From an uncultured candidate division Zixibacteria bacterium (GTDB taxonomy: Bacteria; Zixibacteria; MSB-5A5; GN15; FEB-12): a stretch of DNA of 64,000 nt. A model generated the notes under the pieces. That model did not search any database. It saw nothing but the letters and a program-made list of their open reading frames with translations, and was not told the origin of the DNA. A program made the translations under genes and the position numbers. The stretch covers positions 128,001-192,000 of the forward strand of contig CAWDXE010000004.1 in assembly GCA_963806185.1 (NCBI GenBank), in the 5' to 3' direction. This document shows, one piece after another, positions 16,406 through 36,951 of the stretch (position 1 is the first letter of the stretch; the number at the start of each line of letters is the position of its first letter).

Positions 16406-16408
16406 GCG

Positions 16409-17245
16409 ATGTCCAGTAAACTCGACCTCCACATGCATACCTTCCACTCCGACGGGGCTTACTCGCCGGAGTCGCTCATGGCTATCGTCCGCGCCGCCAA
16501 TCTGGTCGCCTTTTCCGTCACCGATCACGACACCATGCGCGGTTATCACGACGTCACATCGCTGCTCAAACCCGGCGATCCGGAACTGATCCCCGGCGTT
16601 GAATTGTCGGTCACCTTGGACGACACCGACATTCACATGCTCGCCTACCTGTTCGACCCGCACGACACCGAGTTCACCGCTGCCCTCGAGGACTATCGCG
16701 TCAAACGCGAAGCCCGCGGCCGTCAAATGGTTGAAAAGTTGCGCAATCTCGGTCTCGATATTACCTTTGATCAGGTCGCGCTGGTCGCCGGTGATTCCGT
16801 GATCGGGCGGCCCCACGTCGCCACCACCTTGCACCAGTTGGGCCACACGTCGGTGTATGAGCAGGCGTTTTACAAATACATCGGTCCCAAGGGACCTGCC
16901 TATGTCCCCAAGGCTGTGCTCAGGCCCGAGGATGCCATCGCCCTTGTTCACCGGGCGGGCGGCGTCACCGTCCTCGCGCACCCCTTTATCGCCGACACCT
17001 GGCGATTCCTTGATCGCCTTGTCCCGCTCGGTCTCGACGGTCTGGAGGTGTGGCATTATTCTCAGGACACAGCCCAATCCGAGCGACTCAAAACCATGGC
17101 CAGGAAGTATAACCTTGTGACGAGCGGTGGCTCCGATTTCCACGGCCGCGACGCCCGCGAGGGCACCGTCGGCTCCGTTCGCGTCCCGCTCGACGTCCTT
17201 GATAGACTCAAAGAACGCGCCCAGCGCATACGAGGTCACGCGTGA
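16409..17245 (+). CDS. PHP domain phosphoesterase (TrpH/YciV-like)
   Basis: DLHMHT-SDG, TDHD, GVELS, GRPH, LAHP and GGSDFHG motifs. Confidence 0.9.
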   Translation: MSSKLDLHMHTFHSDGAYSPESLMAIVRAANLVAFSVTDHDTMRGYHDVTSLLKPGDPELIPGVELSVTLDDTDIHMLAYLFDPHDTEFTAALEDYRVKREARGRQMVEKLRNLGLDITFDQVALVAGDSVIGRPHVATTLHQLGHTSVYEQAFYKYIGPKGPAYVPKAVLRPEDAIALVHRAGGVTVLAHPFIADTWRFLDRLVPLGLDGLEVWHYSQDTAQSERLKTMARKYNLVTSGGSDFHGRDAREGTVGSVRVPLDVLDRLKERAQRIRGHA

Positions 17246-19344
17246 AAACATCCCTCTTGATTCCGGGTCTTCTCCTCATTGCCGCCACTGCCTTTGCGCA
17301 GTCGTCGTCCCAACCGCTCAGTCAGGAAGCGCAACGCCGCATCGTGGCCGATTACCTGTTTGCGATGGGTCAGCTCGACTCCCGAAACCCGCTTGCCTCT
17401 GCCGTCTCGGTCGAACAATCCGGGGCGCCGCTCAAGTGCGCTACGCCGGCCATTCTCGCCTTCCAGACCCATCGCCGCCAGATCGATCCCGCCATCCTCG
17501 GTAGTCTCTCTGCGACCGCCACCACCCGCCCGATAAATGACTATACCTACGACACCCCCGGCGGTCACTTCAAGATTCACTACTCGAAGTCGGGTCTCGA
17601 CGCGGTATACCAGCCGACCACGGATGGCAACGGAAACGGCGTTCCCGACTTTGTCGACGGCGTCGCCCAGGCCGCCGAATACGTCTACAACTCCCAGGTA
17701 AACGTGATGGACTTCACGGCGCCGCCGGCCGATGATTTCTACACCGAGGGCGGTGACGCTCGCTACGACATCTACCTCAAGGCCGTCTCGTCCACCTTCT
17801 ATGGTTTGGCCTATCCCGATGTTATCGTCGGCGATTCGTTCACCTCGATCATCGCCACCTCGTTCATCGTCCTCGATAACGATTACAGGGACATCGAGGC
17901 GTACAAAGACCGTCCGCTCGATGCCGCGCGCGTTACGCTCGCCCACGAATTCTTTCACGCCGTCCAGTTCGGCATCGACTTCACTGAATTCGACGAGGGC
18001 CCGAATGGTACCCCCGACCGCCCCTGGTGGATGGAAATGTCCGCTACCTGGATGGAAGAGCACCTGTACGACGGTATCAACGACTACTACGCCTATCTCC
18101 CGTATTTTTACCGGGACCCCCGAGCCTCCTTGCAGCAATTCAAGACCGGCTTTGATGCCCACGCATACGGGGCTGTCGTCTGGCCATTGTACCTGAGTCA
18201 GAAGTTCGGCGACGGCATCATCAAGGCCATTTGGGACAAGTGCGGCCAACTCGGCCTCGGCTCGCACGCTCTGATAGCTTTTGATCAGGAAATCGACTCG
18301 ATCAGCGCCAACACCATGGGGTTCTCCACCGCCTTTAACGAATTCAACGTCTGGAATTTCTTTACCGGTGAGTACGCCCCGGCGGCCCCGAATAACATCG
18401 GCTTTGCGGAGAAAGAAAACTATCCCGTCATACCCGTCGATTCCATGGCCCGCCACGACACCTATCCGTTCCTCGTCGTTGACGCCGGCAATCCTTTCCG
18501 ACCTCAGTTTAACGGCGTAACCTATGTCCGGTTCGAGGATGCGTCGTCGGTGCTCAGCGACTACTGGCATTGCACTGGCGCCTACGACCCCGACCACTGC
18601 GATTCCCTCAAAGAAGATACCGTCTCTTTGGTCGAAATCGATTCCCTCTGCTGTAATTACGACACCGCCTTCTCATTTCTCGCCTTCGGCCGCAATCAGA
18701 ATCTCCCGTGGGTCCTCAGTCTGATCTATCAACTGGAATCCCCGCCCGATTCATTCTTCGTGGAGCAGTACCCGATTGAAAACACCGGCTCGACTTTCTG
18801 GACGCTCGGTACCAGCGACACGGTCATTGTTCCCCACAATCCCAAACGCTATCGTTCCGTGACCTTAGTTGCCACCTCCAATACGAGCAGTTACCAGTCC
18901 TACCAGATCAACAAAGTTGTTGAATTTGCCTACGCTGGGTTGGATTCCACGGACTCTCCGGTCAATCGTACTACGACCACCTTGGGCGTGCTCACCCCTT
19001 ACCCCAATCCTGCAGTGGTCGGCCAAATGAACGGTCGTCCGATGACTTTCCGTTTCCAGTTGCCGCTCGACAGCCTCGGCGCACCCGACGCTTCCCTCAT
19101 CAAGATGAAGATGGATGTCTTCAGTCTCGCCGGTGAGCGCGTCGCTTCCGTCGAGGGCATCTTCAACGGCAACGACAGTCGCGGCACCCACCCGCATGGT
19201 GTCTTCTCGGCCGAATGGGATATGACCACCGACAGTCACCAGCCGGTTGCCTCCGGCGCTTATCTGGTGTACGCCCGATTGTACACCGATCCCGAGGGCG
19301 ACCCCGTCGCTGAAAAACGAGTCAAAGTAGCGGTAATTCGATGA
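17242..19344 (+). CDS. Secreted putative zinc metalloprotease with a C-terminal YPNP/FlgD-Ig-like tail
   Basis: Signal peptide; KCAT; HFKIHY; DGNGNGVPD; AHEFFHAVQ...E; C-terminal PYPNP...WD...VASGAYL. Confidence 0.75.
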   Translation: MKTSLLIPGLLLIAATAFAQSSSQPLSQEAQRRIVADYLFAMGQLDSRNPLASAVSVEQSGAPLKCATPAILAFQTHRRQIDPAILGSLSATATTRPINDYTYDTPGGHFKIHYSKSGLDAVYQPTTDGNGNGVPDFVDGVAQAAEYVYNSQVNVMDFTAPPADDFYTEGGDARYDIYLKAVSSTFYGLAYPDVIVGDSFTSIIATSFIVLDNDYRDIEAYKDRPLDAARVTLAHEFFHAVQFGIDFTEFDEGPNGTPDRPWWMEMSATWMEEHLYDGINDYYAYLPYFYRDPRASLQQFKTGFDAHAYGAVVWPLYLSQKFGDGIIKAIWDKCGQLGLGSHALIAFDQEIDSISANTMGFSTAFNEFNVWNFFTGEYAPAAPNNIGFAEKENYPVIPVDSMARHDTYPFLVVDAGNPFRPQFNGVTYVRFEDASSVLSDYWHCTGAYDPDHCDSLKEDTVSLVEIDSLCCNYDTAFSFLAFGRNQNLPWVLSLIYQLESPPDSFFVEQYPIENTGSTFWTLGTSDTVIVPHNPKRYRSVTLVATSNTSSYQSYQINKVVEFAYAGLDSTDSPVNRTTTTLGVLTPYPNPAVVGQMNGRPMTFRFQLPLDSLGAPDASLIKMKMDVFSLAGERVASVEGIFNGNDSRGTHPHGVFSAEWDMTTDSHQPVASGAYLVYARLYTDPEGDPVAEKRVKVAVIR

Positions 19345-19865
19345 CTGGCGGACCGCGCCTATTGACCCGTATTGCTCTGTTTTCGGCGCTCATTTTCGTC
19401 TTGTCGTGGGGCACGGCTTACCTGCCCAATGTCAAATTCACTTTCTTCATAGTCTTTTGTGCCGGCTTCCTCTGGGGAGCCGGTCCCGGTCTCATGGTCG
19501 GCGCCATCGGTACCGGCCTCTGGACCTGGCTCAACGCCTATGGTCCGGCGCCGCTCCCGATCATGCTCGCCCAGATCATTGGGAGCGCCGCCTGCGGCCC
19601 GGTCGGCGCCCTCTTCCGACGGTTCAATCTGTTTACCCGTGGCAAATCGACTGTTGCCCTCGCAATGATCCTCGCCGCTTTGCTCTGTTCGCTCTGTTTC
19701 TATATCCCGGTGAATGTTGTTGATGCCTGGCTTTTCCAGCCCTTCTGGCCACGCTTTGTCGCCGGCTCAATCTGGATGCTCGTCTCTCTGGCCGCCAACA
19801 TGCTGATTTTCCCATTGCTTTTCCCCGCCCTCAGGCTGTTACATGCGAGGGAAGAGGCAGCATGA
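19341..19865 (+). CDS. ECF transporter S component (CbrT-like)
   Basis: 174-aa multi-TM protein; ALFSAL and LPNVK motifs. Confidence 0.65.
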   Translation: MTGGPRLLTRIALFSALIFVLSWGTAYLPNVKFTFFIVFCAGFLWGAGPGLMVGAIGTGLWTWLNAYGPAPLPIMLAQIIGSAACGPVGALFRRFNLFTRGKSTVALAMILAALLCSLCFYIPVNVVDAWLFQPFWPRFVAGSIWMLVSLAANMLIFPLLFPALRLLHAREEAA

Positions 19866-21886
19866 AAAGTCGTTCCGCTAGTTGGTTTGTCGGTTTCAGC
19901 TTGTGGTGTATTTCCATCCCGGTCGTCGCACAGGACCAACCCGGCAACCGCGTTCCCGCCACGACGCCTCCCGATACGACTGCCATTGCTGATACCTCTC
20001 GTCCCGCCCTCGACACCACCCTGCAAAAATATCTCCCGCCCAGGGAACGCAACGAACCATCCACGAAGAAAGAAGTGGAGCGCAAACCCGCGTTGCCCCA
20101 CCTTTCGATTATCGATTCTGTACTCACCTCGTACATCAGCGATCGATTAAACGAACGCCGCTTCATCGATCAATCGTCCTATCACGATGCCGGCGACTAC
20201 GCACGCCACGATCCGGCCTTCTTTGCCCAGCAGTACTACGAAACCCCGGTCCGGTCGACCGTCGCACCATTTGGCCTAGCGGGCAATCGGCTCGATATTA
20301 TCCGCGACCATAGCCGCGTCGAACCGTTCGATCACGTCATCGAACCCGACGGCATGGTTGACATGAACGACCTCCCAACGGCCACCGATGATGCCGTCCT
20401 CCTGATCCCTGGCCCCGCCGGACAGCTTTTCGGCAGCGATCAGGCGATTGCCTCAATGATTACCCGAGCCGTCCGCCCCGATTCCTCCCCGGCGATCAGT
20501 GCTTTCCTGGTCGACAAAGGCGCTTACGGTTTCTCTCACGCCCGCGCTCGCTATGCCAAACGCTTCACCACCGGCAAGGACCTCGCGCTTTCGCTTGACT
20601 ACCGACTCGCCGACGGCGGCAGTGGCAACTTCGTCGATAACACCTACCACTACACCGTCGACTTCCTCTTCCCGATAGGCGAAAACTGCGGCGTCTCCGC
20701 CGACGGGTGGATCTACGACCGCGGCGGACGATATCCTCTTCGACCCGATACGAGATTTCTCTCGGTCGAACGCAACCGCATCGATCGCCACCTGAACCTC
20801 GGCTTCTTCCGCCAGAACACCGATCACAGCCGGCTCGATCAAATCACCTATCGTCACCTGCGTCAGGGCGTCTTCATAGGCAACGACAATGCAACCAACT
20901 ACAAATCCCGCTTCAATCTCACCGGCCACGGCTTCACCGCTCAGCGCGATCTCGTCCTGCCGACGGCGTTTGTGCACATCACCGCCTACGGCGATTACCT
21001 GCGCTACGACCACGGCACCGCCGAGTTCACTCGCGTCAGCGGCGGCGCCTCGCTCGATTTTGCGCAGCGGAAAGTCTCCGGTTGGCGCTACGGCGCTCAC
21101 GCCAAATTGGATTACACCGAGTCGTTTCGCCCCAATCTCGACGCCGCAGCCCTGCTGTTGTCCGATTCTCCGACCCGCCTCTATCAGCTATCCGTCGGCC
21201 TCGCTGAAAAGGTCCCGTCCCTTCACGAACTCTACAGCCCCCTGCGCGTCTCCAACTTCTACGGCAACCCTGCCGACTACACCGAACACGGCAACCCCGA
21301 CCTTAAGCTCGAACATCAGCTCGTTGCCTCCGCTCAGGCGGAGTTCGGCCCGCTTTCGCGTCGCATCGGTCTAACCCTCACCGGCGGTCGTCTCTTCGAC
21401 GCCATCGACTGGCTCCCGGATAAAACCACCGATGCCGGCATCGACCGCTATAACTTCTCACCAATCAACCATGATCTTTCCTTCGCCGATGCCACTCTCC
21501 GTGGCGAATGGCAGTGGCGCACCACCCTTCAGCTTCACGGCGGCGCCAGTGGCCGCTATCAACATTACTCCGACCGTTCCGACTGGCCCTACACTCCCAA
21601 CTATCAGCTCTTCGGCGGCGGCGAACTGCACTACTACTGGGCGCAGAAACTCATGCACTTCTATGCCTACGGCGAGGTCGTCTATGTTGGCGCCTATTCC
21701 ACCTATTCGGGAGACGAACTGGCCGCCACGCCGGTCTTCAACAGCAAATTATCCTTCACCATGGGCAATTTCCGTTTCAATCTCACTTACCTGAATACTC
21801 TGGCCAACGCGTACGAATCACGCGAGGACCTTACTTCCATCGGCCGCCTCGTCACCTGGGGCTTCATCTGGAACTTCTTCGACTGA
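19862..21886 (+). CDS. Outer-membrane beta-barrel protein (TonB-dependent receptor / putative porin-like)
   Basis: Signal peptide; alternating beta-strand pattern; PSLHELY...GNPDLKLE; C-terminal WGFIWNFFD. Confidence 0.7.
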   Translation: MKSRSASWFVGFSLWCISIPVVAQDQPGNRVPATTPPDTTAIADTSRPALDTTLQKYLPPRERNEPSTKKEVERKPALPHLSIIDSVLTSYISDRLNERRFIDQSSYHDAGDYARHDPAFFAQQYYETPVRSTVAPFGLAGNRLDIIRDHSRVEPFDHVIEPDGMVDMNDLPTATDDAVLLIPGPAGQLFGSDQAIASMITRAVRPDSSPAISAFLVDKGAYGFSHARARYAKRFTTGKDLALSLDYRLADGGSGNFVDNTYHYTVDFLFPIGENCGVSADGWIYDRGGRYPLRPDTRFLSVERNRIDRHLNLGFFRQNTDHSRLDQITYRHLRQGVFIGNDNATNYKSRFNLTGHGFTAQRDLVLPTAFVHITAYGDYLRYDHGTAEFTRVSGGASLDFAQRKVSGWRYGAHAKLDYTESFRPNLDAAALLLSDSPTRLYQLSVGLAEKVPSLHELYSPLRVSNFYGNPADYTEHGNPDLKLEHQLVASAQAEFGPLSRRIGLTLTGGRLFDAIDWLPDKTTDAGIDRYNFSPINHDLSFADATLRGEWQWRTTLQLHGGASGRYQHYSDRSDWPYTPNYQLFGGGELHYYWAQKLMHFYAYGEVVYVGAYSTYSGDELAATPVFNSKLSFTMGNFRFNLTYLNTLANAYESREDLTSIGRLVTWGFIWNFFD

Positions 21887-21943
21887 CCACTACCCCTTCG
21901 CCCATCTTGACAGGCCTCACCAATGGCGGCATATTCCGTCATC

Positions 21944-22501
21944 ATGCCACTCGAACTCACACGCGAAACCGCCTATCAACTCGTCGTCGACAAAATCGGC
22001 GTCAACAATTTGCTGAAACACATCCTGGCCGTCGAGGCCGGCATGCGCCGACTGGCCGAGCACTTTGGTGAGGACCCTGAATACTGGGGGCTGATTGGCC
22101 TCGTGCACGATCTCGATTACAACGAAACCAAGAACAACGCTCCTCGCCACACCTACGTTACCGAGGAATGGCTGACCGACTATCACCTGCCCGCCGACTT
22201 CCACTACGCCATTCACGCACATCCGGGTCACGTCCCTTGCCGCTCGCGCCTCGATTGGGCCTTGTATGCCGTTGATCCCTCCACCGGCTTTCTGGTCGCC
22301 TGCGCCCTCATGCACCCGTCGAAAAAACTCGCCCCCATCGACGCCGACTTCATGCTCCGCCGCTTCGCCGAAAAACGTTTTGCCGCCGGCGCCACTCGCG
22401 AAAACATCGCCGCCTGCAGCAACCTGGGTCTGGAACTCGATCAGTTCCTTTTACTCGTAAAAGAGGGGATGCTTCGCATCTCCGATAAACTGGGTATCTG
22501 A
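21944..22501 (+). CDS. HD (HDIG-type) domain hydrolase
   Basis: KHILAVEA, GLVHDLD, IHAH and FAAGATRE motifs. Confidence 0.85.
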   Translation: MPLELTRETAYQLVVDKIGVNNLLKHILAVEAGMRRLAEHFGEDPEYWGLIGLVHDLDYNETKNNAPRHTYVTEEWLTDYHLPADFHYAIHAHPGHVPCRSRLDWALYAVDPSTGFLVACALMHPSKKLAPIDADFMLRRFAEKRFAAGATRENIAACSNLGLELDQFLLLVKEGMLRISDKLGI

Positions 22502-22505
22502 GCCC

Positions 22506-23834
22506 GTGGCTAATTCCCGAAAGTCCGTCTTCCGCCGCGATGTCATCGCCTGGTCGATGTATGATTTCGCCAATACCATCTATTCGATGAACGTCGTCTC
22601 GCTCTATTTGAAACGACTGATCGTCGAAGATCAAAAGTACGATGACCGCTACTTTGACATCCCCTTCGCCGTCTCCATGCTGTTTGCCGCCCTCCTTATG
22701 CCCGGTCTCGGCGCCCTTTCTGATCACTCCGGCCGGAAGAAGGCGTATGTCACGATCTTCACGGTTGTCTGCTGCGCCGCCGTCGCGGCCATGGGCTTGG
22801 TGTCGCCCGGCCTGGTCGGCTTGACCATCATTCTGTTCATCACGGCCAATTTCTGTTATGAAGCGTCAATGCCTTTCTACAACTCCTTGCTCTATTCTGT
22901 CGCCGACGGCGCCGAGGCCCGCTTTGTCTCCGGTATCGGCGTTGCCCTCGGCTACGTCGGTTCTGTCGTCGGCATGATCCTCATCCTCCCGTTCGTCACC
23001 GGCTCGCTGTTCAGCCTCGATATCCCGTTTCTCGACGGAGGAGGGAAGCAGGCCGCTTTCCTGCCTACCGCCATCCTCTTCCTCCTGTTTTCCTTGCCGC
23101 TCTTTCTCGTTGTTCACGAGCTTTCGACTCGGAAACCTGGCTCGGCCTCATTGCGGACGGCGTATCGCGAGGTATGGGATTCGCTTCGTCAAACCCGAAA
23201 ATATCCCGGCGTCCTGCGCTTTCTGATCGCTGACTACTTTATTGAAGACGCCGTTGCTACCGTCATCCTGAACATTGGCCTTTATTCGTCGATCGTCTTT
23301 GGCATGGCCGACGCCGAAATCACCATCTTTCTCGTTATCTCCACGATCACTGCCGTGATCGGTTCGTTCATCATCGGGCGAATCGCCGAATTCTGGTCGC
23401 TCAAGAGCCTGATGACTATCATTGTCTTCGGCTGGGTCGCCGCGTTGGCGGTTTTTGTCCTCACTGATAATCGCACTGCCATCTGGATCCTTGGCTCCGT
23501 CGTCGGCATTCTCCTCGGCGGTCTCTGGACAACCACTCGTCCCTATCTGGCCGAACTGGTCCCGCGCGATGAACTGGGCCGCTTTTTCGGCCTTTTTGCC
23601 CTCTCCGGACGAGCCGCGGCCGTCGTCGGACCGCTTGTGTGGACGACAATCGTCTATTTATTTCGCCCGGAGCGTCCGCTTGGACGTATCTTATCCGAGT
23701 GGCTGGGACAATCGCCGGATGCCGCCGCCCGCCTGCCGTACAAGCTGGGCGTGGCTTCGCTCGCGCTTATGATGCTGGTTGGTTTGTTTATTTTGCGTAA
23801 GGTGCCGCACACTCACAAAGGACTGCATGGCTAA
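22506..23834 (+). CDS. MFS transporter (UMF1/Atg22-like)
   Basis: AWSMYDFANT, GALSD-GRKK, FYNSLL and GRFFGLFAL motifs; about 12 TM segments. Confidence 0.88.
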   Translation: MANSRKSVFRRDVIAWSMYDFANTIYSMNVVSLYLKRLIVEDQKYDDRYFDIPFAVSMLFAALLMPGLGALSDHSGRKKAYVTIFTVVCCAAVAAMGLVSPGLVGLTIILFITANFCYEASMPFYNSLLYSVADGAEARFVSGIGVALGYVGSVVGMILILPFVTGSLFSLDIPFLDGGGKQAAFLPTAILFLLFSLPLFLVVHELSTRKPGSASLRTAYREVWDSLRQTRKYPGVLRFLIADYFIEDAVATVILNIGLYSSIVFGMADAEITIFLVISTITAVIGSFIIGRIAEFWSLKSLMTIIVFGWVAALAVFVLTDNRTAIWILGSVVGILLGGLWTTTRPYLAELVPRDELGRFFGLFALSGRAAAVVGPLVWTTIVYLFRPERPLGRILSEWLGQSPDAAARLPYKLGVASLALMMLVGLFILRKVPHTHKGLHG

Positions 23835-24879
23835 ACAGGTCGGACAATGGTTCCACTATTCGGGCGCGGTGCACATGCACACCACCGAATCCGACGGCAC
23901 CAAAACACTCGAGGAAGTCATTCAGATCGGCCGCGAGGTCGGTCTCGACTTCATGATGTTCTCCGACCACATGACGCTGGCCCACCGCGAGCGCGGGGGA
24001 GAGGGTATCTACGGCGACACCCTGGCTGTCATCGGCTATGAACATAACGACGCCACCGACTGCCATCACTATCTCCTCTTTGAGTCACCCGTCGTCTATC
24101 CGAGGGATTTCACCCCCAAACAGTATGTCGCCGCCGGAGCCGCCGACAACGCCATCGGTATTATGGCTCATCCCGATGAAATCCGCGATCGCATGCCCAA
24201 CTATCCGCCCTACCCATGGCTTGACTGGGACGTCAAAGGGTTCACTGGCCTCGAATTATGGAACCAGATGTCTGAATGGATGGAGAAACTCACCCCCTAC
24301 AACAAACTGCTCATGAGCCTCTCGCCGCGCAAATCAATGATCGGTCCCACCGACCGCATCCTGAGGAAATGGGATGAACTGAATATGACCGGCCGCTGTG
24401 TTGGTATCGCCGGCGCCGATGCCCATGCCTTTCCCGTCTACCTCGGACCACTGAAAATTGAAATATTCCCCTATAAAGTGCACTTTAGAGCTTTGCGCAC
24501 GAATATCATTCTCAGTCAGCCGCTCTCCAAGGACCTCATACCCGCCAAACAACAGCTCTATTCCGCCCTCCGGGACTGCCGCGTCTACAACGCCAATATC
24601 CGCTGGGGTGAGGCCGACGATTTCCTGTTTACCGTCTCCAACGGTCAGGCGGCGGCCGTCTCCGGCGACGATATCAAACTGATCCCCGATCACACGAATC
24701 TGGCCGTCTCGCTCCCGGATACGGCCACGATCAAAGTCGTCCATGACGGTCGCTACGTTCATCAATCGGCCGGCAAAAAATTGGAGCTGGCCGTTGCGCT
24801 TCCCGGTATGTATCGTGTGGAAGCATGGAAAGGGAAACGCGGCTGGATATTCTCCAACCATATCCGCGTGAGCCAATGA
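23827..24879 (+). CDS. PHP-fold metallohydrolase (CehA/McbA-like)
   Basis: GAVHMHT-SDG, SDH, AHP, GLELWN and GADAH motifs; C-terminal WIFSNHI. Confidence 0.8.
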   Translation: MAKQVGQWFHYSGAVHMHTTESDGTKTLEEVIQIGREVGLDFMMFSDHMTLAHRERGGEGIYGDTLAVIGYEHNDATDCHHYLLFESPVVYPRDFTPKQYVAAGAADNAIGIMAHPDEIRDRMPNYPPYPWLDWDVKGFTGLELWNQMSEWMEKLTPYNKLLMSLSPRKSMIGPTDRILRKWDELNMTGRCVGIAGADAHAFPVYLGPLKIEIFPYKVHFRALRTNIILSQPLSKDLIPAKQQLYSALRDCRVYNANIRWGEADDFLFTVSNGQAAAVSGDDIKLIPDHTNLAVSLPDTATIKVVHDGRYVHQSAGKKLELAVALPGMYRVEAWKGKRGWIFSNHIRVSQ

Positions 24880-24885
24880 TCAGGC

Positions 24886-25281
24886 ATGGAAACTGTCGTT
24901 TGCGATTACACCGCCCTTTTTGACTTTCAGGCCCCGTTACCCGCTGCCCCCGTGTCGTGCAAGTTCGTCCTCCTATGGTATGAACAGAAACATTGGCTGG
25001 TGGTGGGCAAGTACGACGACTTTGCCTATCACGCCATGCTCGTCCACCGCTTCAGCAAAGAGCACGATCTGGCCGTACATTGGATCAAATTCCTCGAATT
25101 GGCTCAGCTCGAAACCAAAAACGCCACCATCCTCGGCGGCGGTTGGATGAAAATCGATCTGGCCGCCAAATCTGTCCGACTCCATGGCACGTCTACCGCT
25201 TATGGCACTGCCGACTACGCCCTCGCTTCCGCGGCCCTTTCCGCCCATCCCGATTTTGGCCGACTTACCGTTTCGTTTTAA
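24886..25281 (+). CDS. Janus/Ocnus (PHPT1-like) family protein
   Basis: Order and spacing of KFVLL, VVG, YHA, LGGG and GTSTAYG resemble PHPT1 KYVLI, VRG, YHA, LGGG and GYSMAYG. Confidence 0.6.
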   Translation: METVVCDYTALFDFQAPLPAAPVSCKFVLLWYEQKHWLVVGKYDDFAYHAMLVHRFSKEHDLAVHWIKFLELAQLETKNATILGGGWMKIDLAAKSVRLHGTSTAYGTADYALASAALSAHPDFGRLTVSF

Positions 25282-25523: not shown

Positions 25524-25881
25524 ATGTTCGAGACATTTTACCCTATTCTTTTCCTCGTCCTTGCTGCCACCGTCCTGGCCGTTACTTTTACGCTCATATC
25601 AGTTCTTATCGGCCGGCGCACCCGTCAGGGGAAGAAAGAACAACCCTACGAATGCGGTGTCGATCCGCAGGGTCACCACGCGCGACCCCGTACCGATAAA
25701 ATTCTTCATGGTCGCTATTTCCTTTATCCTGTTTGATATCGAAGTCATTTTCCTCCTCCCGTGGGCGGTCGTCGCCCGCGACCTCGGCATGTTCGGCTTC
25801 GTCAGCATCCTCATTTTCGCAACGGTCGTTATCGTCGGCTGGGTCTATGAACTCGGCCGTGGAGCCCTCAAGTGGGATTAG
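25524..25881 (+). CDS. nuoA: NADH-quinone oxidoreductase subunit A (one frameshift ~25670)
   Basis: PYECG in the first frame; FILFDIE-FLLPWA and GALKWD in the second. Confidence 0.9.
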
Positions 25882-26375
25882 AAGAGAAAATTCCTGATTC
25901 AATCATACTGACCACCGTCGATAAGATGGTCAACTGGGCGCACAAACGCTCCATGTGGCCGCTCGGCTTCGGCCTCGCCTGCTGTGCGATCGAGATGATC
26001 TCGACCTTTTCACCACATTTCGATCTCGCGCGCTACGGCATGGAAGTCATGCGCCCTTCGCCTCGCCAGGCTGACCTGATGATCGTCGCCGGCCGCGTCT
26101 CCATGAAAATGGCCCCGGTGGTCAAGACCCTTTACGAGCAGATGCCCAATCCGAAATGGGTCATTGCCATGGGCGCCTGCGCTTCGTGTGGCGGAGTGTT
26201 CAACAACTATGCTGTTCTGCAGGGTGTGGATCGCATCATCCCGGTTGACATTTACGTCCCCGGCTGTCCGCCTCGTCCCGAACAGCTGATGGATGGCATC
26301 CTGAAACTTCAGGAAAAACTCGAGCGCGAATCCATCAAGGACAAGCGTGCCGAATGGGGTCAGCGGATCGCATAA
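25872..26375 (+). CDS. nuoB: NADH-quinone oxidoreductase subunit B
   Basis: [21 protein letters not shown] and PGCPPRPE motifs. Confidence 0.96.
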
Positions 26376-26427
26376 AGGACATCGCACATCCGATCCGCCG
26401 ACCAAATGTAAATGGAGTTTGTGAATT

Positions 26428-26961
26428 TTGGCGCAAGATAATCCGGTCTCGCAACGAGTACGAGAGTTTCTCCAGGCGCGCTTCCCCGACGCCCTCGTCA
26501 GCGAGGACAACTTCCGCAACCAGCAATCGTTCACCATCAAGGCCGAACGACTGGTTGATCTCTGCCGGGCGCTACAGGAAGACGCCGACCCAAAATTCAA
26601 CTATCTCAGCGATATCACCTGCGTCGACTGGCTCGGTCATGCCGAAGAGAAGAAGGGACGCTTCGAAGTCGTCTACAACCTCTATTCGCTGTCCCATGCC
26701 TGCCGACTGCTTCTCAAAGTGCGACTCCACGCCGACTATCCCCAGTTGGACAGCCTCACGCCTCTCTGGAACGGCGCCAATTGGCTGGAACGCGAAGTCT
26801 GGGATCTCTTCGGCGTCGTCTTCGTCGGCCATCCCGACCTGACCAAGATCGTCACGGCCGACGATCTCGAAGGCCATCCGTTGCGTAAGGACTTTCCCCT
26901 TACCTACGAAACGCCCGTCTTCTCCTGGAACAAGGATGATCCGCCGGAGGTGATCAGGTAG
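26428..26961 (+). CDS. nuoC: NADH-quinone oxidoreductase subunit C
   Basis: RFEVVYNL, ANWLERE-WDLFG and GHPLRKDFP motifs. Confidence 0.95.
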   Translation: MAQDNPVSQRVREFLQARFPDALVSEDNFRNQQSFTIKAERLVDLCRALQEDADPKFNYLSDITCVDWLGHAEEKKGRFEVVYNLYSLSHACRLLLKVRLHADYPQLDSLTPLWNGANWLEREVWDLFGVVFVGHPDLTKIVTADDLEGHPLRKDFPLTYETPVFSWNKDDPPEVIR

Positions 26962-28134
26962 TGGCCGAAATCAAGACCATGCACATCAATATGGGCCCTC
27001 AGCACCCCTCCACTCACGGCGTGCTGCGTGTCGAGCTTGAACTTGAGGGCGAAACTGTCATCAAGGCCAAACCTGTCATCGGCTATCTGCATACCGGCAT
27101 CGAAAAGACGATGGAGTCCAAGCTGTACTACAAGGCGCTCCCCGCCACTGACCGAATGGACTACCTCGCGCCCATGTCGAACAATCTCGGCTACTGCCTT
27201 GCGGTCGAAAAACTACTTGATATCGATGTCCCGGAGAAAGTCAAATACGCCCGCGTCTGTCTTGCCGAGCTGACCCGTATCAATTCACATCTCGTCTGGC
27301 TCGGCACTCACGCTCTCGATATTGGTGCCATGTCGATGCTGTTATACACCTTCCGCGAACGCGAGTTGATCATCGACATCTACGAGGCCTGCGGCGGTCA
27401 GCGCATGATGACCTCCTACATCCGCATCGGCGGCCTTTCACATGAACTGCCGCCTGATTTCGACGAACGCGTGCGCAAAGTCCTTAAGGTCATTCCCCAG
27501 CGTCTGGAAGAGTACGAGACACTCCTTACCAAGAACCAGATATTCATCAGTCGCACCAAAGGCGTGGCCGTCATCTCCGCCGAGGATGCCATCAACTGGT
27601 CCCTCTCCGGTCCCATGGCCCGCGGCTCCGGTGTGAAGTACGACGTCCGCAAGGCGAATCCCTACTCCGGTTACGAGAAGTTTGATTTCAATATGGCCCT
27701 TGGCACCAACGGTGACGCCTACGATCGGTACCTCCTCCGCCTCGAGGAAATCCGTCAATCTCTGCGGATCATCCAGCAGTCGCTCGAAGGTATGCCGGAA
27801 GGTCCCTACCGCGCTCACGTGCCGGGTGTCGTTCTGCCGCCCAAGGAAGACGTCCTCCACAAGATGGAATCGCTGATCTTCCACTTTAAGATTGATCACC
27901 GAGGGCTTTCACGCCCCCACCGGCTCAGTCTATCAGGCGATCGAGTCGCCCAAGGGTGAGATTGGGTTCTTCATCACGGGCGACGGTTCCACGTATCCCC
28001 GCCGCGTCCGTGTCCGCCCGCCCTCTTTCATTAATCTCGCCGCTTTGCCCGCGCTGGTGGAGGGTCGGATGCTGGCCGACGTCATCGTGGCTATTGGTAC
28101 CATTGACATCGTTTTGGGAGAAGTTGACCGATGA
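26961..28134 (+). CDS. nuoD: NADH-quinone oxidoreductase subunit D (frameshift ~27890)
   Basis: GPQHPSTHGVLR, GYLHTG and DRMDY; second frame gives IESPKGE...DIVLGEVDR. Confidence 0.93.
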
Positions 28135-28607
28135 TTCTCACCGCTGAATCGGTGAAACAGATGAAAGATGCCGTGACCCGGTATCCGCAGAAAAAATCGG
28201 CGGTCCTCCCGGCGCTCACGATTGCCTATCGTCAGGTCGGACATCTGAACGACGACATATATAAGGAAATCTCGAACGCCATCGATGTCCCGTAGGTCGA
28301 GGTCGCCGAGGCAGCCACCTTCTACACCCTCTTCCCGAAACATCCGGTCGGCAAGTATCTCATCCAGGTCTGCCACAACATTTCGTGCGCCTTGCTCGGC
28401 GCCGATAGTCTGGTCGGGTATCTCGAACAGAAACTGCAGATCAAGAAAGGGGAGACCACCAAGGACAATCTGTTTACCTTGATTTCCGTCGAGTGCCTCG
28501 GCTCCTGCGCCACCGCGCCCATGATGCAGATCAATCAGGATTTTTACGAGAATCTGACCCGTGAAAAGGTCGACAAGATTTTGGAGGAATTGAGAGCTAA
28601 AGGCTGA
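28131..28607 (+). CDS. nuoE: NADH-quinone oxidoreductase subunit E (in-frame TAG at 28293-28295)
   Basis: Manual translation: RYPQKKSAVLPAL...DVP*VEVAEAATFY...VCHNISC...ECLGSC-APMM. Confidence 0.9.
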
Positions 28608-29941
28608 TGTTTTATTCACCGGTCATAACCAACGCCGCCGAGGCGGCCCAAAACGAGAAGCTGCACCTCTTCAGGTACGTCGAGGATCCCAACCAGACGA
28701 AGCTCGAAACGTACGACTCCCACGGCGGCTATGCCGCCTGGAACAAGGTGCTGACGTCGATGAAAGCCGACGACGTCATCGCGACGGTGAAGAACTCCGG
28801 CCTCCGCGGCCGTGGCGGCGCCGGATTCCCGACCGGCATGAAGTGGAGCTTCGTGCCGAAGGCCTCGCCGAAAGCCCGCTATCTCGTTTGCAACGCCGAC
28901 GAATCCGAACCGGGCACCTGCAAGGACCGCGTCATCATGGAACGCGATCCGCACGCCATGATCGAGGGCATGGCCATCGCCGCCTTTGCGATCGGCAGTC
29001 ACCTGATGTTTGTCTATATCCGCGGCGAATTCAACCATAGCATCGACACCGTCATCGCCGCCATGCGCGAGGCCTACGCCAAGGGCCATCTCGGCAAGAA
29101 TATCTACGGCTCCGGCTACGACCTCGACATGGTCGTCCACACCGGCGGCGGCGCCTACATCTGCGGCGAGGAAACCGCTCTCCTCAATTCCCTGGAAGGG
29201 GAGAAGGGACTCTCGCGCATCCGTCCGCCTTTCCCGGCGATCGAAGGCCTCTACGCCTCGCCGACCATCGTCAACAATGTCGAAACCCTTTCGGCCGTGC
29301 CGCACATCATCAATCGCGGCGCCGAATGGTATCGCACGCTCGGCACTGAGAAATCCGCCGGCACCAAAATTTTCAGCCTCAGCGGCCATGTCAAACGCCC
29401 GGGCAACTACGAGGTCGAACTCGGCTTCAACCTGAAAAAGTTCATTTTCGACCCCGCCTACGGTGGCGGCATGCTCGGCGATAAAAAATTGAAAGGTGTC
29501 ATCCCCGGCGGTGCTTCCACTCCGTTCCTCACACCGGATATGATCGACGTCCCGCTCGACTACGAAGGACTCACCCAGAAAGGCTCCATGCTCGGCTCCG
29601 GGGCGGTCATCGTCTTCAACGAAGACACCTGCATCGTCTGGGTCATCTGGAAGCTGATTCATTTCTTCCGCCACGAATCCTGCGGCAAATGTACCCCCTG
29701 CCGTCAGGGGACAGCCTGGCTTGAACAGATTATTGAGCGCATCGAGCACGGTCAGGGACGTCCCGGCGATATCGAGAAGATCGAAGACGTGTGCGGCAAT
29801 ATCCTCGGACGAACCATCTGTCCGCTCGGCGATGCCGCCGTCATGCCCATTCAGAGCGCTATTAAACACTGGCGCGATGAATGGCAGCATCATATCGATA
29901 ATAAACAGTGCATGGTAAAGACTCACTTCGAGTTCAGATAA
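28607..29941 (+). CDS. nuoF: NADH-quinone oxidoreductase subunit F
   Basis: GLRGRGGAGFPTGMKW, NADESEPG, YICGEETAL and ESCGKCTPCR motifs. Confidence 0.97.
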   Translation: MFYSPVITNAAEAAQNEKLHLFRYVEDPNQTKLETYDSHGGYAAWNKVLTSMKADDVIATVKNSGLRGRGGAGFPTGMKWSFVPKASPKARYLVCNADESEPGTCKDRVIMERDPHAMIEGMAIAAFAIGSHLMFVYIRGEFNHSIDTVIAAMREAYAKGHLGKNIYGSGYDLDMVVHTGGGAYICGEETALLNSLEGEKGLSRIRPPFPAIEGLYASPTIVNNVETLSAVPHIINRGAEWYRTLGTEKSAGTKIFSLSGHVKRPGNYEVELGFNLKKFIFDPAYGGGMLGDKKLKGVIPGGASTPFLTPDMIDVPLDYEGLTQKGSMLGSGAVIVFNEDTCIVWVIWKLIHFFRHESCGKCTPCRQGTAWLEQIIERIEHGQGRPGDIEKIEDVCGNILGRTICPLGDAAVMPIQSAIKHWRDEWQHHIDNKQCMVKTHFEFR

Positions 29942-29949
29942 GGAATCGC

Positions 29950-32536
29950 GTGTCCGAAGACGCCAAAACTGACGTTCGTACCAAGGCCGATGAGCAAGCC
30001 AAGCCTGCCGTGCCCGCGGTCACGCTCACCATTGACGGACGGCAGACCACCGTCCCTAAAGGCACCACCGTGCTTCGGGCCTCCCTTGATATGGGTATCA
30101 AGATTCCCTTTTTCTGCTGGCACCCCAAGCTCAAGCCGGTCGGCGCCTGCCGCATGTGTTACGTCGAAATCGAAAAGATGCCCAAGCTCCAGGTCTCGTG
30201 TGCCACAGAATGCACCGAAGGCATGATCGTCCACACCGATTCCCAGCAGGTGCTCGACGGACGCCGGGCCATCATCGAATTCACGCTGCTCAACCATCCG
30301 CTCGACTGCCCCACCTGCGACAAGGGGGGAGAGTGCGATTTGCAGGACTTGACTGTCGCACACGGCTACGACGACTCCCGCTTCGATTTCGAAAAGCACC
30401 GGCATATCGAAGACGAAGTGCACACCACTTTCGACGATCTGCCGATCGGCCCGGAGATCATTCTCAACCGCAATCGCTGCATCCTTTGTTACAAGTGCGT
30501 TCGCTCAAACAAAGAGGCTTTCGGCGAATACGATCTGGGCGCCTTCGAGCGTGGCGATCATACCGAAATCAACGCCGCCCCGAATCAGCAGGTCGACAAT
30601 CCCTTCTCCGGCAACCTGGTCGAGATCTGCCCGGTTGGCGCGCTGACCAATACCGATTGGCGCTACAAAATCCGCGTCTGGCTCACCGAAAAAATCGCCG
30701 CCGTTGATCCCTTTGGCTCATCCGGCATTAACATTAATCTTCAGCCGCGAACAGCATCAGAACAAGATCTTCCGCATCACGTCGCGGCGTAACGACGATA
30801 TCGATGACGGCTGGTTGCCCGACGTCACCCGCTACGGCTACCAGCTGGTGCAGTCCATCGAACGTCTGCAGAAACCGCTCATCAAGAAAAACGGCCAACA
30901 GGTGCAGGCGACGTGGGAAGAAGCCTTGGCCGTCATTGCCATGCGCCTCAAATCGATCAATGAGCAGCGCGGTTCCGTCTGTATCGGCGGCCTCGCCGGC
31001 CCTCAGCTCGATAACGGTTCTCTCTACGCCTTCAACAAGTTTTTGCGTACCGTCATCGGCACCAATGCCGTCGACTCTCGCTACGACTACAAGCACCTGC
31101 CCGCGACCGGCGATTCAATCTGGCAGGCCGCGTCGTCGCGACCGTTCTCGATCAACCAGATCGACGCCTCCGATGTCATCGTCACCTTCGGCACCGATCT
31201 CCTTCGCGAACACCCCAACGAATACCTGCGCATTCGTAAGGCCTGCGCCTTCAACAATGCCCGGTACTTTGCCGTCAATCCGTATGCGACCAAAACGGCC
31301 GACGTCGCCCGGCTGGAATTGACCTACACTCCCGGCACCGACGAGCTGATGCTCACCGCCATCTGTCTGGCCGCCATCGAAGAAAATCTGGTTCCACCGG
31401 CTGAAGCTTCCGCTCTCAAGGCCAAATTGCCGTCCACCTCGCTCAAAGAACTCGTCGAGGTGTGTGGAGTCGACGAATCGGAATTGAAATTCCTGGCCCG
31501 CGCCATCGCGGAAGGGAAGAAGGTCACCTTCTTCGCCGGCGAACTGGTCAGCACCAGCATCGCTCGCGAGACGATCGCCTCCGCGCTGTCCAATCTGAAT
31601 CGTCTCTTCGGTCTCGATCAGAAGGGCCAACTGGCTATCCTGCCGCGCCATGCCAATAGCAATGGCGCTGATCGCCTTGGCGCGGTCGCGACTCCTCTGC
31701 CGCAGGTCAAAGACGCGCTGAAAAAACTCTGGGGAGAATTCCCCGATACCGACCCCTGCAACACCGACGAGATGTTCGCCCGTGCCCGTAAAGACGAACT
31801 CGATGCCATGCTGATAATCGGCGCCAACCCGGTCATGCTCTACCCCGATCGCGAATTTGCCCGCGAAGCCATCGATAAACTCGACTTCCTGGTAGTCGCC
31901 GACCTCTTTGAAACCGACACCACCGCTCTCGCCGACGTTGTCCTGCCCCTTACCAGTTGGGCCGAACAAGCCGGCGACTTCATCAATCTGGAAAACAAGG
32001 TTCAGCGCTCTCTGCCTGGCATCAAGCCGGTCGCCGAATCGAAGTCGGCCGTCGACATCCTGACCGCCATCGCCGACGAAATGGGTCAGCGCCTCTTCGC
32101 GACCGATCGCGACTGCGCCGCCGAAACCGCCCGTTTGCTCGAGGTCGGCCCTTATCTGCCGCTCCCGAAAGAGTATCTCGCGATCACCCCGGCCACCGAA
32201 CCTGCCGATGCCGACCACCCGTTTGTGCTGGTCGTGGGCGATGACCCGCATCACGCAGGCTACTTGACCGAGAAAGCTACCTCGCTTTCGAATTTCGTCA
32301 GCGAAGCGTATGTTGAAATCGCTCCCGCCACCGCCGCCAAACTCGGCGTGAGGGAGAAGGGGATGGTGCGCCTCGAAACCAAAACGGCCAAAATAATCCT
32401 TCCGGTGCGCCTATCCGACTACCTTGATAATGACGTTGTCCTCGTGCCGCGCAACTTCGCGGCCGCCCGGGTCAACAGTTTATTGAGTCGCACCAAACGT
32501 GTGGATCGGGTCAAAGTTACCCGCATGGACGCCTGA
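29950..32536 (+). CDS. nuoG: NADH-quinone oxidoreductase subunit G (frameshift ~30730)
   Basis: FCWHP, GACRMC, HPLDCPTCDKGGEC-LQD, RCILCYKCVR and CPVGAL; molybdopterin-oxidoreductase-like C-terminal part in the next frame. Confidence 0.92.
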
Positions 32537-32538
32537 GC

Positions 32539-33566
32539 ATGCTTGAGACAATCATCATATCCTCCATTCAGGTCATATTCGTTATGGTGTGCGTCCTGAC
32601 CGGGTGTGCCTGGTCCACCTGGCTCGAACGCAAGGTGGTGGGTCATATGCAGCATCGCTTCGGCCCCACCTATGCCGGCCCTTATGGATTACTGCAGCCC
32701 ATTGCCGATGCCGTCAAACTGATTTTTAAAGAAGACATCATTCCCAGCAACGTCGAGCGTATCACCTACGCCCTCGCGCCGATTCTCGCCTTCATCCCGT
32801 CGATGCTCTCGTTTGCCGTGATTCCGTTCTCACCGGACTTCACCGTCTTTGGCTACCACTTCAACGGCATGCTCTCCGATCTGAACATCGGCATCCTGTT
32901 TGTCTTCGCCGTCACTTCGCTCGGCGTCTACGGCATTATTCTCGCCGGTTGGTCATCGGGATCGAAATACTCTCTGCTCGGCGGCATCCGATCGTCGGCG
33001 CAAATGATTTCCTACGAGATCAGCTACGGCCTCTCGATCATCGGCGTGATCCTGGTGGCCGGCACGCTTTCGATGCGCGAACTGGTGGACATGCAGGACG
33101 GGCACTTCCTCTATGTCATCCCGACTGGTTTCGTCTTCAAGGCAGCCGTTCGGCTTCATCCTCTATTGATCTGTGCGCTATCGCCGAAACCAATCGCGCC
33201 CCCTTCGACCTCCCCGAAGCCGAATCCGAACTCGTCGGTGGTTATCATACCGAGTATTCGTCCATGCGATTCTCGATGTTCTTCATCAGCGAATACGCCA
33301 ACATGCTGGCCGTCGCTTGCGTCGGCACTACCCTGTTTCTCGGCGGATGGCAATCCCCCTTGCCCTGGAACTTGCCGTGGTATTTTTTCGGCGACGGTGT
33401 CCTCTGCTTTCTCGCCAAAGTAGTGCTCTTTATGTTCTGTTATGTCTGGTTGCGCGCCACCTTCCCTCGGTTGCGCTACGACCAGTTGATGAATTTCGGA
33501 TGGAAAGTGCTGTTCCCGTTAGCTATTGCCAACACGCTCATCACCGGTTACTTCGTGTTGCGCTGA
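32539..33566 (+). CDS. nuoH: NADH-quinone oxidoreductase subunit H (indels ~33140-33175)
   Basis: [16 protein letters not shown] and AQMISYE; next frame gives [17 protein letters not shown] and PRLRYDQLM. Confidence 0.92.
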
Positions 33567-33593
33567 TCGGATAGGCTGAAGGATAGATGTGTT

Positions 33594-34100
33594 ATGAAAG
33601 AGATTCTTAGAGCGTTCGGCCATGTGATCTGGAAGATGCCGCAAGGCTTCCTGGTGACGCTGAAGTACTTCTTTAAGAAGCCGGTTACGCTGGACTATCC
33701 GAAGAAGAAGAAGCCGATGGCCCCGCGCTATCGCGGCAAACACTACCTCGAACGTTACGACGACGGCACCGAACGCTGCGTTTGCTGCGGTCTGTGTGCC
33801 GCGGCCTGTCCTGCCGACGCCATCTACATGGAACCGTCGGAAAACGAAAAGGGCGAACGCTTCGCCAAAGTGTACGAAATAAATCTCCTGCGGTGCATCT
33901 TCTGCGGCTTCTGCGAGGAAGCCTGCCCCGAGGAAGCGATCTTCCTCGGTCGCGAATACGAATTCTCCGATGACAACCGCAACTCGTTCATTTATACCAA
34001 GGAGCAGATGCTGGTCCCGTACCCGCGCAAGGACAATCCGTTCAAACGGATCTACCGCCGCGTGCGCAAAGTCTACGGTGTGCCGGACGCGACACGATGA
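33594..34100 (+). CDS. nuoI: NADH-quinone oxidoreductase subunit I
   Basis: CVCCGLCAAACP and RCIFCGFCEEACP ferredoxin motifs. Confidence 0.96.
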   Translation: MKEILRAFGHVIWKMPQGFLVTLKYFFKKPVTLDYPKKKKPMAPRYRGKHYLERYDDGTERCVCCGLCAAACPADAIYMEPSENEKGERFAKVYEINLLRCIFCGFCEEACPEEAIFLGREYEFSDDNRNSFIYTKEQMLVPYPRKDNPFKRIYRRVRKVYGVPDATR

Positions 34101-34684
34101 CACTCGACGTTGTCATATTCTTCATCTCGGCTGTGGTGGCCGTTTTCGGCGCGACTATGATGATCGCCCAGCGCAATCCGGTCGCCTCCGTGCTCTACCT
34201 GATCCTCTCCCTGGTGGCTCAGGCCGTCTGTTACGTTCAGCTTGGCGCCCTCTTTCTCGGCTCCCTGCTCGTTATCGTCTACGCCGGCGCCATCATGGTG
34301 TTGTTCTTGTTTGTCATCATGCTGCTCAACCTGCGCGGCTCGGAGGATTTGGGCAAGCCCTCTTCGCGGCTCGGCCGTTTCACCAAGGTGATCGTCGCGA
34401 TTCTCCTTGTCGTCGAACTGCTCTTCGTCGTGAAGAGCGTGGTGCTACCGGTGGTCCCCACCGGCATCATGGTCGCTCCCTCCGAGTTCGGCTCCGTCCC
34501 GTCAGTATCGAGACTGCTCTTTACGAAATATTTGTATCCGTTCCAGCTGACCGGCATCTTGCTCTTGATCGCCGTCGTCGGCGCCGTGGTGATCGCCCGC
34601 AAGGATCGCGATGATGACCACCTGGACGAGGAACACAAGCCGGAAGCGGTCGACGTTGACACCCCCACGAAGGCGGTGAGGTAG
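34097..34684 (+). CDS. nuoJ: NADH-quinone oxidoreductase subunit J
   Basis: NPVASVL and VYAGAIMVLFLFVIMLL motifs. Confidence 0.95.
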   Translation: MTLDVVIFFISAVVAVFGATMMIAQRNPVASVLYLILSLVAQAVCYVQLGALFLGSLLVIVYAGAIMVLFLFVIMLLNLRGSEDLGKPSSRLGRFTKVIVAILLVVELLFVVKSVVLPVVPTGIMVAPSEFGSVPSVSRLLFTKYLYPFQLTGILLLIAVVGAVVIARKDRDDDHLDEEHKPEAVDVDTPTKAVR

Positions 34685-34687
34685 GCT

Positions 34688-34990: not shown

Positions 34991-35000
34991 GAAAGGTCTG

Positions 35001-36948: not shown

Positions 36949-36951
36949 GGT

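What the first reader, a model, noticed from the sequence alone, without database searches (positions are those of the whole stretch)
24886..25281. Bacterial protein resembling eukaryotic phosphohistidine phosphatase PHPT1 (Janus/Ocnus)
Seen: a 131-aa protein with KFVLL...VVG...AYHAML...ILGGGW...VRLHGTSTAYGTA. Known (from memory): human PHPT1 is about 125 aa and has KYVLI...VRG...EYHADI...CLGGGR...IHVYGYSMAYGPA, with the His of YHA catalytic. The Lys, His and Ser equivalents are kept, while the Arg after GGG is Trp. The family is mostly described from eukaryotes. The gene ends a run with HD and PHP phosphoesterase genes, just before nuo. Inference: a candidate bacterial pHis phosphatase unrelated to SixA.
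Basis: partly seen in the sequence, partly recalled or inferred. Interest (0 to 1): 0.7.

Follow-up and report, generated by a model that had tools for sequence, protein, structure and literature searches.

The report
Arginine-less bacterial PHPT1-type phosphatase homologue
A small gene kept by most genomes of one family of uncultured bacteria encodes a relative of the animal enzyme PHPT1, with the same predicted fold and the same key histidine, lysine and serine but a tryptophan in place of an active-site arginine, so it likely removes phosphate from histidine or other nitrogen-linked sites, an activity that is untested.

Summary
Observation confirmed. The 131-aa ORF (24886-25281, +) scores above the Pfam Janus/Ocnus cut-off. 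Its AlphaFold model (pLDDT 96) matches human PHPT1 at Z 14.1, next hit 4.0. The equivalents of PHPT1 Lys21, His53, Ala54, Ser94 and Ala96 are kept; His and Ser are invariant in 206 of 206 homologues. Arg78 is Trp, Arg45 is Val, His102 is Tyr, and a 13-residue hairpin is inserted. The gene is in 96 of 107 genomes of its family (likely Zixibacteria) and in two other families, not in 17. The neighbourhood is not functional evidence. Sister families have PHP directly before nuoA without it, and the other two families carry it elsewhere without that PHP gene. It does not exclude SixA (p=0.48). Best reading: a PHPT1-mechanism phosphoramidate (pHis/pLys) phosphatase, about 0.55; no substrate identified. 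Databases already label bacterial members, and ten literature searches found none studied. This scan has reported bacterial PHPT1 homologues on at least eight other genomes.

The parts
24886..25281 (+). Janus/Ocnus (PHPT1-fold) protein, 131 aa, single copy in the genome
   Evidence: single copy
24961..24963 (+). Lys26 = PHPT1 Lys21
   Evidence: aligned; K in 203 of 203 homologues that cover the column
25027..25035 (+). Tyr48-His49-Ala50 = PHPT1 Tyr52-His53-Ala54 (catalytic His)
   Evidence: His in 206 of 206
25075..25110 (+). predicted beta-hairpin (residues 64-75) within a 13-residue insertion relative to PHPT1; Trp66 conserved; K/R common at 68-69
   Evidence: His-to-GGG spacing 35 versus 22 in human
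25135..25146 (+). Gly84-Gly85-Gly86-Trp87; Trp87 replaces PHPT1 Arg78
25192..25206 (+). Ser103-Thr-Ala105-Tyr-Gly107 = PHPT1 Ser94-Met95-Ala96-Tyr97-Gly98 phosphate-binding loop
   Evidence: Ser and Gly107 in 206 of 206
23827..24879 (+). upstream neighbour: PHP-family metallohydrolase (CehA/McbA-like, below cut-off); context only, not shown to be a partner
22506..23834 (+). MFS (Atg22-like) transporter; context only
21923..22501 (+). HD/HDIG-domain protein; context only

Best explanation
The gene encodes a stand-alone Janus/Ocnus-family protein with the predicted PHPT1 fold that likely works as a metal-independent phosphoramidate phosphatase, removing phosphate from phosphohistidine (or phospholysine) on proteins. 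Shown: family membership, the predicted fold, and conservation of Lys26, Tyr48-His49-Ala50, Gly84-86, Ser103, Ala105, Tyr106 and Gly107. Inferred from PHPT1: His49 acts as a general base that activates water for direct attack on phosphorus with no phospho-enzyme. The backbone NH groups of His49, Ala50 and Ala105 and the Ser103 hydroxyl hold the phosphate, and Lys26 stabilises the transition state. Inferred and weaker: the substrate-anchoring job of Arg78 is dropped, or passes to a Lys/Arg on the inserted hairpin, which would change the substrate range. The genome has plausible pHis carriers (HPr, enzyme I, 30 HisKA domains, one Hpt), but nothing singles one out.
For: Pfam above cut-off; 107 of 121 close homologues also match only Ocnus. 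Model pLDDT 96.2, pTM 0.89. Foldseek's five hits under E 1e-3 are all PHPT1; VIA-align Z 14.1, rmsd 2.9, 102 aligned, next Z 4.0 among 48,161 chains. Five of the six catalytic-site residues listed in PMC4817053 (K21, H53, A54, S94, A96) are identical. The most conserved columns among 206 homologues, at 21-43% identity to the query, are these site residues; this is the pattern of a kept catalytic pocket. Two divergent syntenic orthologues that Pfam misses still keep K, H and S. The gene is retained in 96 of 107 family genomes. PHPT1 itself accepts bacterial CheA-P (PMC11277029) and pLys and free phosphoramidate (PMC4389004). The genome has HPr, enzyme I, HisKA and Hpt proteins, and no SixA was found in this 82%-complete assembly.
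Against: Arg78, implicated in substrate anchoring or transition-state stabilisation, is Trp here and R/K in only 4 of 135 close homologues. The Arg45 position is never Arg (0 of 206). His102, called important in PMC11277029, is Tyr here and variable in the family. Net charge is -2, whereas PHPT1 has a large positive surface round His53. No neighbouring gene is a kinase or PTS protein in any of the 41 loci drawn (judged by clustering and partial Pfam scans). There is no exclusion with SixA: 25 of 96 genomes with the gene and 4 of 11 without it have SixA over cut-off, p=0.48. HPr is in 276 of 285 genomes and so cannot discriminate. The query is a long branch and has lost family residues (Cys57, Pro70, Phe109). 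Homologues were collected with profiles that contain the conserved residues, so the conservation counts are partly circular.
Confidence: 0.55

Rival explanations
1. It uses the same His-Lys-Ser pocket on a small molecule (a metabolite phosphoramidate or phosphate ester, for example in metabolite repair) and not on phosphoproteins; the aromatic residue at the Arg78 position would stack on that substrate.
For: Position 87 is W/Y/H/F in 116 of 135 close homologues. It sits among metabolic and transport genes in all three families and never beside signalling genes in the loci drawn. PHPT1 hydrolyses free phosphoramidate.
Against: No pathway gene travels with it across families. More distant bacterial homologues keep R/K at this position in 48 of 71 cases with an otherwise identical pocket. 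The only characterised members act on proteins.
Confidence: 0.25
2. It is a non-catalytic or barely catalytic phosphate/pHis-binding module in this lineage.
For: Loss of Arg78, Arg45 and His102 equivalents. The gene has been lost or replaced in some near-complete family genomes (G008, G017, G026) and is broken in G147. Drosophila Janus proteins have no established phosphatase role (PMC4817053).
Against: The general-base His, Lys and Ser are invariant, which a pure binding role would not be expected to require.
Confidence: 0.12
3. It is a working part of an HD-MFS-PHP phosphoester-processing operon, or regulates or helps assemble the complex I encoded next door.
For: It directly follows the PHP gene in 91 of 92 family genomes with both positions listed, with a 6-nt gap here, so co-transcription is likely. 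nuoA follows in 20 of 21 loci first drawn.
Against: The PHP gene is in 218 of 285 genomes, including 50 of 52 in the three sister families that lack this gene, and is not found in the two other families that have it (0 of 6, 0 of 15). In 12 of 13 sister-family loci PHP runs straight into nuoA. Unrelated genes occupy the same slot in G008, G017 and G026. In the other two families the neighbours are EamA, an epimerase, a methyltransferase and others.
Confidence: 0.08

Closest known systems
Human PHPT1, 14-kDa phosphohistidine phosphatase (EC 3.9.1.3; PDB 2HW4, 2NMM, 2AI6, 2OZW, 2OZX)
   Same: Fold (Z 14.1, 102 residues aligned, 24% identity); size; K21, Y52, H53, A54, GGG, S94, A96, Y97 and G98 equivalents; stand-alone domain.
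   Different: Arg78 to Trp87, Arg45 to Val40, His102 to Tyr111, Tyr93 to Thr102, Met95 to Thr104, Glu51 to Ala47; a 13-residue insertion forming a predicted beta-hairpin; bacterial host; no activity or substrate known.
Pfam PF05005 Janus/Ocnus, automatically labelled bacterial and phage members (ESM Atlas clusters, commonest Nitrospirota and Uroviricota)
   Same: Same family; Atlas feature scores 0.90-0.93; same invariant K, H, GGG, S, YG.
   Different: Distant bacterial members mostly keep R/K after GGG (48 of 71), while this family's group has an aromatic residue and a conserved C57/W66. On a quick tree it forms its own weakly supported group (SH-aLRT 79).
SixA (histidine phosphatase superfamily, TIGR00249/PF00300), the known bacterial pHis phosphatase
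   Same: Proposed reaction class only.
   Different: Unrelated family. No PF00300 or TIGR00249 match and no RHG motif. SixA works through a phospho-His intermediate (PMC7948535); PHPT1 does not.

Membership tests
Janus/Ocnus family (PF05005) | HMM score above the curated cut-off | tested here: met
   35.1 bits against 23; 107 of 121 close homologues match at E<=0.001
Janus/Ocnus family (PF05005) | PHPT1 alpha/beta fold | tested here: met
   predicted model; Foldseek E 1.5e-5, prob 1.0; Z 14.1 against next 4.0
PHPT1 enzyme (EC 3.9.1.3) | General-base His53 in Y-H-A | tested here: met
   His49; 206 of 206
PHPT1 enzyme (EC 3.9.1.3) | Lys21, Ala54, Ser94, Ala96 of the phosphate site | tested here: met
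   K26, A50, S103, A105
PHPT1 enzyme (EC 3.9.1.3) | Arg78 after GGG | tested here: not met
   Trp87; R/K in 4 of 135 close and 48 of 71 distant homologues
PHPT1 enzyme (EC 3.9.1.3) | Arg45 and His102 (His102 per PMC11277029; the importance of Arg45 is recalled, not read) | tested here: not met
   Val40, never Arg in 206; Tyr111, variable column
PHPT1 enzyme (EC 3.9.1.3) | Hydrolysis of protein phosphohistidine without a phospho-enzyme | not testable with these tools
   needs an assay
PHPT1 enzyme (EC 3.9.1.3) | Orthology to eukaryotic PHPT1 on a tree | not tested
   no eukaryotic sequence was returned as a usable protein id; the tree holds only the 66 homologues collected here
SixA / histidine phosphatase superfamily | RHG motif and PF00300/TIGR00249 match | tested here: not met
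   no match in Pfam or NCBIfam; no RHG motif in the sequence
Functional HD-MFS-PHP cassette | Co-occurrence and adjacency beyond one lineage | tested here: not met

The most novel reading that the evidence does not exclude
Bacteria have a second, SixA-independent class of protein phosphohistidine phosphatase, using the PHPT1 direct-hydrolysis mechanism thought to be eukaryotic. This family's version is a re-tooled form in which an inserted hairpin supplies the basic residue in place of Arg78 and redirects it to a bacterial target such as HPr, enzyme I or a sensor kinase.
Probability: 0.3. Interest if true: 0.75.

Novelty: new variant of a known kind. Interest (0 to 1): 0.48.

Why it matters
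A 2020 paper lists only four pHis phosphatases with proposed in vivo targets, and only SixA is bacterial (PMC7948535). PHPT1 is described as eukaryotic (PMC4389004). An active bacterial PHPT1-type enzyme would add a second chemistry for erasing pHis in bacteria and bear on where PHPT1 came from. This clade is also a natural Arg78-minus variant with an otherwise invariant pocket, so it tests directly what Arg78 contributes. The limits are that hosts are uncultured, databases already label such proteins as Ocnus-domain, and genome context gives no substrate.

Tried and rejected
Functional link to the PHP, HD or MFS genes or to nuo: rejected. Replacement of SixA: no exclusion, Fisher p=0.48, and kin are not independent. 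HPr co-occurrence: uninformative, 276 of 285. Homodimer prediction: no verdict, score 0.00, neither for nor against. Expression: no RNA holder listed, so no reads were laid. Phage homologues by tblastn: three hits at E 0.3 only. BFVD gave one weak structural lead, Tenacibaculum phage pT24 A0A1B4XX83, E 0.015, not followed. The single-sequence homologue search found only the query. Scans for named loci in genome contigs could not run because neither alignment had a conserved stretch long enough. Ten weak extra hits (E 0.002-0.006) lie in frames of about 470-540 aa; the two translated are GltD/NfnB-like flavoproteins (my reading of the sequence), so these hits are treated as noise. The promoter scan found 1 site against 1.9 expected, and no + strand terminator after the gene. 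A sequencing artefact as the source of the query's odd residues is unlikely: it stays in register and at normal length against orthologues, although the nuo genes nearby are frameshifted. The careful tree did not finish; only the quick tree is used. The primary mutagenesis papers (PMID 18991813, 16990267) were not held, so how much activity R78 or R45 mutants lose was not read.

Full report
OBSERVATION. It begins 6 nt after the stop of a PHP-type gene, and nuoA starts about 240 nt further on. The upstream run is ECF S-component, a 674-aa predicted outer-membrane protein with no Pfam match, HD/HDIG protein, MFS transporter, PHP-family hydrolase. The gene's GC and GC3 (0.55, 0.65) are near those of its neighbours (0.56-0.59, 0.70-0.78), and it is single-copy in the genome.

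FAMILY AND FOLD. Pfam Ocnus scores 35.1 bits against a cut-off of 23. The single sequence finds PHPT1 as its top PDB hit but weakly (E 0.066); profiles reach E 2.9e-5 (20 orthologues) and 3e-6 (35 sequences). AlphaFold2 on the 20-row alignment gave pLDDT 96.2 and pTM 0.89. All five Foldseek hits under E 0.001 are human PHPT1. VIA-align against 48,161 chains gave Z 14.1, rmsd 2.9 A over 102 residues to 2NMM, with the next hit at Z 4.0. The ESM Atlas places it beside clusters automatically named Janus/Ocnus, mostly bacterial (commonest Nitrospirota) and one with many phage members.

ACTIVE SITE. Human numbering was read from the PDB sequence: K21=K26, R45=V40, Y52=Y48, H53=H49, A54=A50, R78=W87, S94=S103, A96=A105, H102=Y111. 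PMC4817053 (passages read) names Lys21, His53, Ala54, Arg78, Ser94 and Ala96 as the catalytic-site residues. It says the NH groups of His53, Ala54 and Ala96 and the Ser94 OH bind phosphate, and Lys21 and Arg78 anchor substrate or stabilise the transition state. PMC11277029 (section 3.1 read whole; passages) gives His53 as a general base activating water with no phospho-enzyme, names His102 as important, and notes activity on bacterial CheA. I aligned 206 of the 216 proteins held; 10 fragments or chimeras were dropped. His49, Ser103, Gly85, Gly86 and Gly107 are present in 206 of 206, and Lys26 in 203 of the 203 that cover it. Position 87 is R/K in 4 of 135 close homologues (W 70, Y 30, H 11) but in 48 of 71 distant ones; position 40 is never Arg; position 111 is variable. 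These sets were gathered with profiles, so invariance is partly built in. Two syntenic orthologues too divergent for Pfam still keep K, H and S. The spacing from the His to GGG is 35 residues against 22 in human, and the model folds the extra stretch as a hairpin. Proteins without a basic residue at 87 mostly have K/R at 68 or 69 (134 of 154, against 15 of 52; within the distant group 16 of 23 against 12 of 48). This is only a lead: kin are not independent, the loop aligns poorly, and I could not measure its distance from the pocket. The query itself is a divergent member, with Ser, Leu and Ala where the clade has Cys57, Pro70 and Phe109.

DISTRIBUTION. Across 285 genomes of the phylum the profile matches 116: 96 of 107 in the window's family besides its own genome, 5 of 6 in f10, 14 of 15 in f20, and none in 17 other families. 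A profile of distant homologues gave the same picture, plus ten weak hits treated as noise. The Pfam model alone finds only 21 of 61 relatives. The library of 50% clusters holds 424 proteins at E<=0.001. NCBI labels on homologues point to Zixibacteria (two others are labelled Acidobacteriota), so the phylum is an inference. A quick tree of 66 homologues (22 family f1, 5 f10, 10 of 12 fetched f20, 29 others) sets the f1 proteins apart with weak support and nests f10 and f20 among the others; it shows no donor or order of events.

CONTEXT. In the family the gene directly follows PHP in 91 of 92 genomes with both positions listed, inside a conserved block running to nuo. This does not extend further. 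The PHP gene is in 218 of 285 genomes, including 50 of 52 in the three sister families that lack our gene, and was not found in f10 or f20. In 12 of 13 sister-family loci PHP runs straight into nuoA with no trace of the gene even with filters off. Three near-complete family genomes without it carry unrelated genes in that slot. In f10 and f20 the neighbours are EamA transporters, an epimerase, a methyltransferase and others. The simplest reading is a gain at this slot in the family's ancestor, then vertical descent; loss in the sister families is not excluded.

CANDIDATE SUBSTRATES. The genome has HPr and enzyme I side by side, 30 HisKA domains over cut-off, and one Hpt. No SixA was found, but the assembly is 82% complete; the one weak histidine-phosphatase match carries an internal stop. 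SixA and this gene do not exclude each other (25 of 96 against 4 of 11, p=0.48), and HPr is almost universal. Nothing points to one target.

MECHANISM. Most likely (0.55) it is a PHPT1-type phosphoramidate phosphatase for protein pHis or pLys: water activated by His49, phosphate held by backbone NH groups and Ser103, Lys26 stabilising the transition state. Fold and residues are shown; catalysis and substrate are inferred. Rivals: the same chemistry on a small molecule (0.25), a non-catalytic binder (0.12), a part of the HD-MFS-PHP run or of complex I control (0.08). PHPT1's own breadth (pLys, free phosphoramidate, not pArg; PMC4389004, abstract and passages) means that even an active enzyme need not be pHis-specific.

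KNOWN OR NEW. It is a member of the Janus/Ocnus family by score and fold. It works like PHPT1 by inference but fails three residue tests (Arg78, Arg45, His102), so I do not file it as PHPT1 itself. Ten full-text searches found no study of a bacterial member. PMC7948535 (passages) lists SixA as the only bacterial one of four pHis phosphatases with in vivo targets. PMC6429109 (passages) adds nothing on bacterial PHPT1. PMC10989767 (passages) says in passing that PF05005 is mainly composed of bacterial proteins, so the bacterial range is in databases. Subscription papers and supplements were not seen, and the primary mutagenesis papers were not held. Earlier notes of this scan describe bacterial PHPT1 homologues in at least eight other genomes, one also lacking the arginine; none matched this sequence or this context. 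They are leads and I did not count them as support.

VERDICT. A real, family-wide conserved gene; a new variant (Arg78-minus, hairpin insertion) of a known but unstudied bacterial branch of a known enzyme family. Interest 0.48; 0.75 if it proves a second class of bacterial pHis phosphatase with a re-tooled site (probability about 0.3).

Noticed in passing
window 25524-38746 (nuo operon): nuoA, nuoD, nuoG, nuoH and later genes are split by frameshifts while relatives are intact; most likely indel errors in the assembly, not pseudogenes.
   Followed up: partly
window 22506-24879: The MFS transporter plus PHP-family hydrolase pair is conserved across most of the phylum (PHP in 218 of 285 genomes at about 47-69% identity; MFS upstream in all 20 loci). 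The PHP protein scores below every NCBIfam cut-off (best CehA/McbA, 44 of 80 bits), so it is an unassigned family that may process what the transporter carries.
   Followed up: partly
window 19341-21886: An ECF S-component gene overlaps a 674-aa signal-peptide protein with no Pfam or NCBIfam match whose C-terminal Phe suggests an outer-membrane barrel; the pair recurs in relatives and could be a vitamin uptake unit (inference).
   Followed up: no
L097, L098, L099 (G008, G017, G026): The slot between PHP and nuoA holds other genes (acetyl-CoA hydrolase/transferase, a sulfide dehydrogenase-like flavoprotein) in family genomes that lack the Ocnus gene, so it behaves as an insertion site.
   Followed up: partly
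L090 about 6870-7260, - strand (G147): The Ocnus orthologue is split by a frameshift and has an internal stop in this genome, which does have SixA; a real loss or an assembly error.
   Followed up: no
G000:C7:1031830-1032126: The only histidine-phosphatase-superfamily match in the genome is a broken gene in what looks like an AT-rich stretch.
   Followed up: partly
BFVD A0A1B4XX83: An uncharacterised 108-aa Tenacibaculum phage pT24 protein is the top viral structural match (E 0.015, prob 1.0), in line with phage members of the family.
   Followed up: no
window 14870-17245: A fused formiminotransferase-cyclodeaminase (histidine degradation) and a second PHP protein (TrpH/YciV-like) lie 8-10 kb upstream; no link to the finding was tested.
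   Followed up: no
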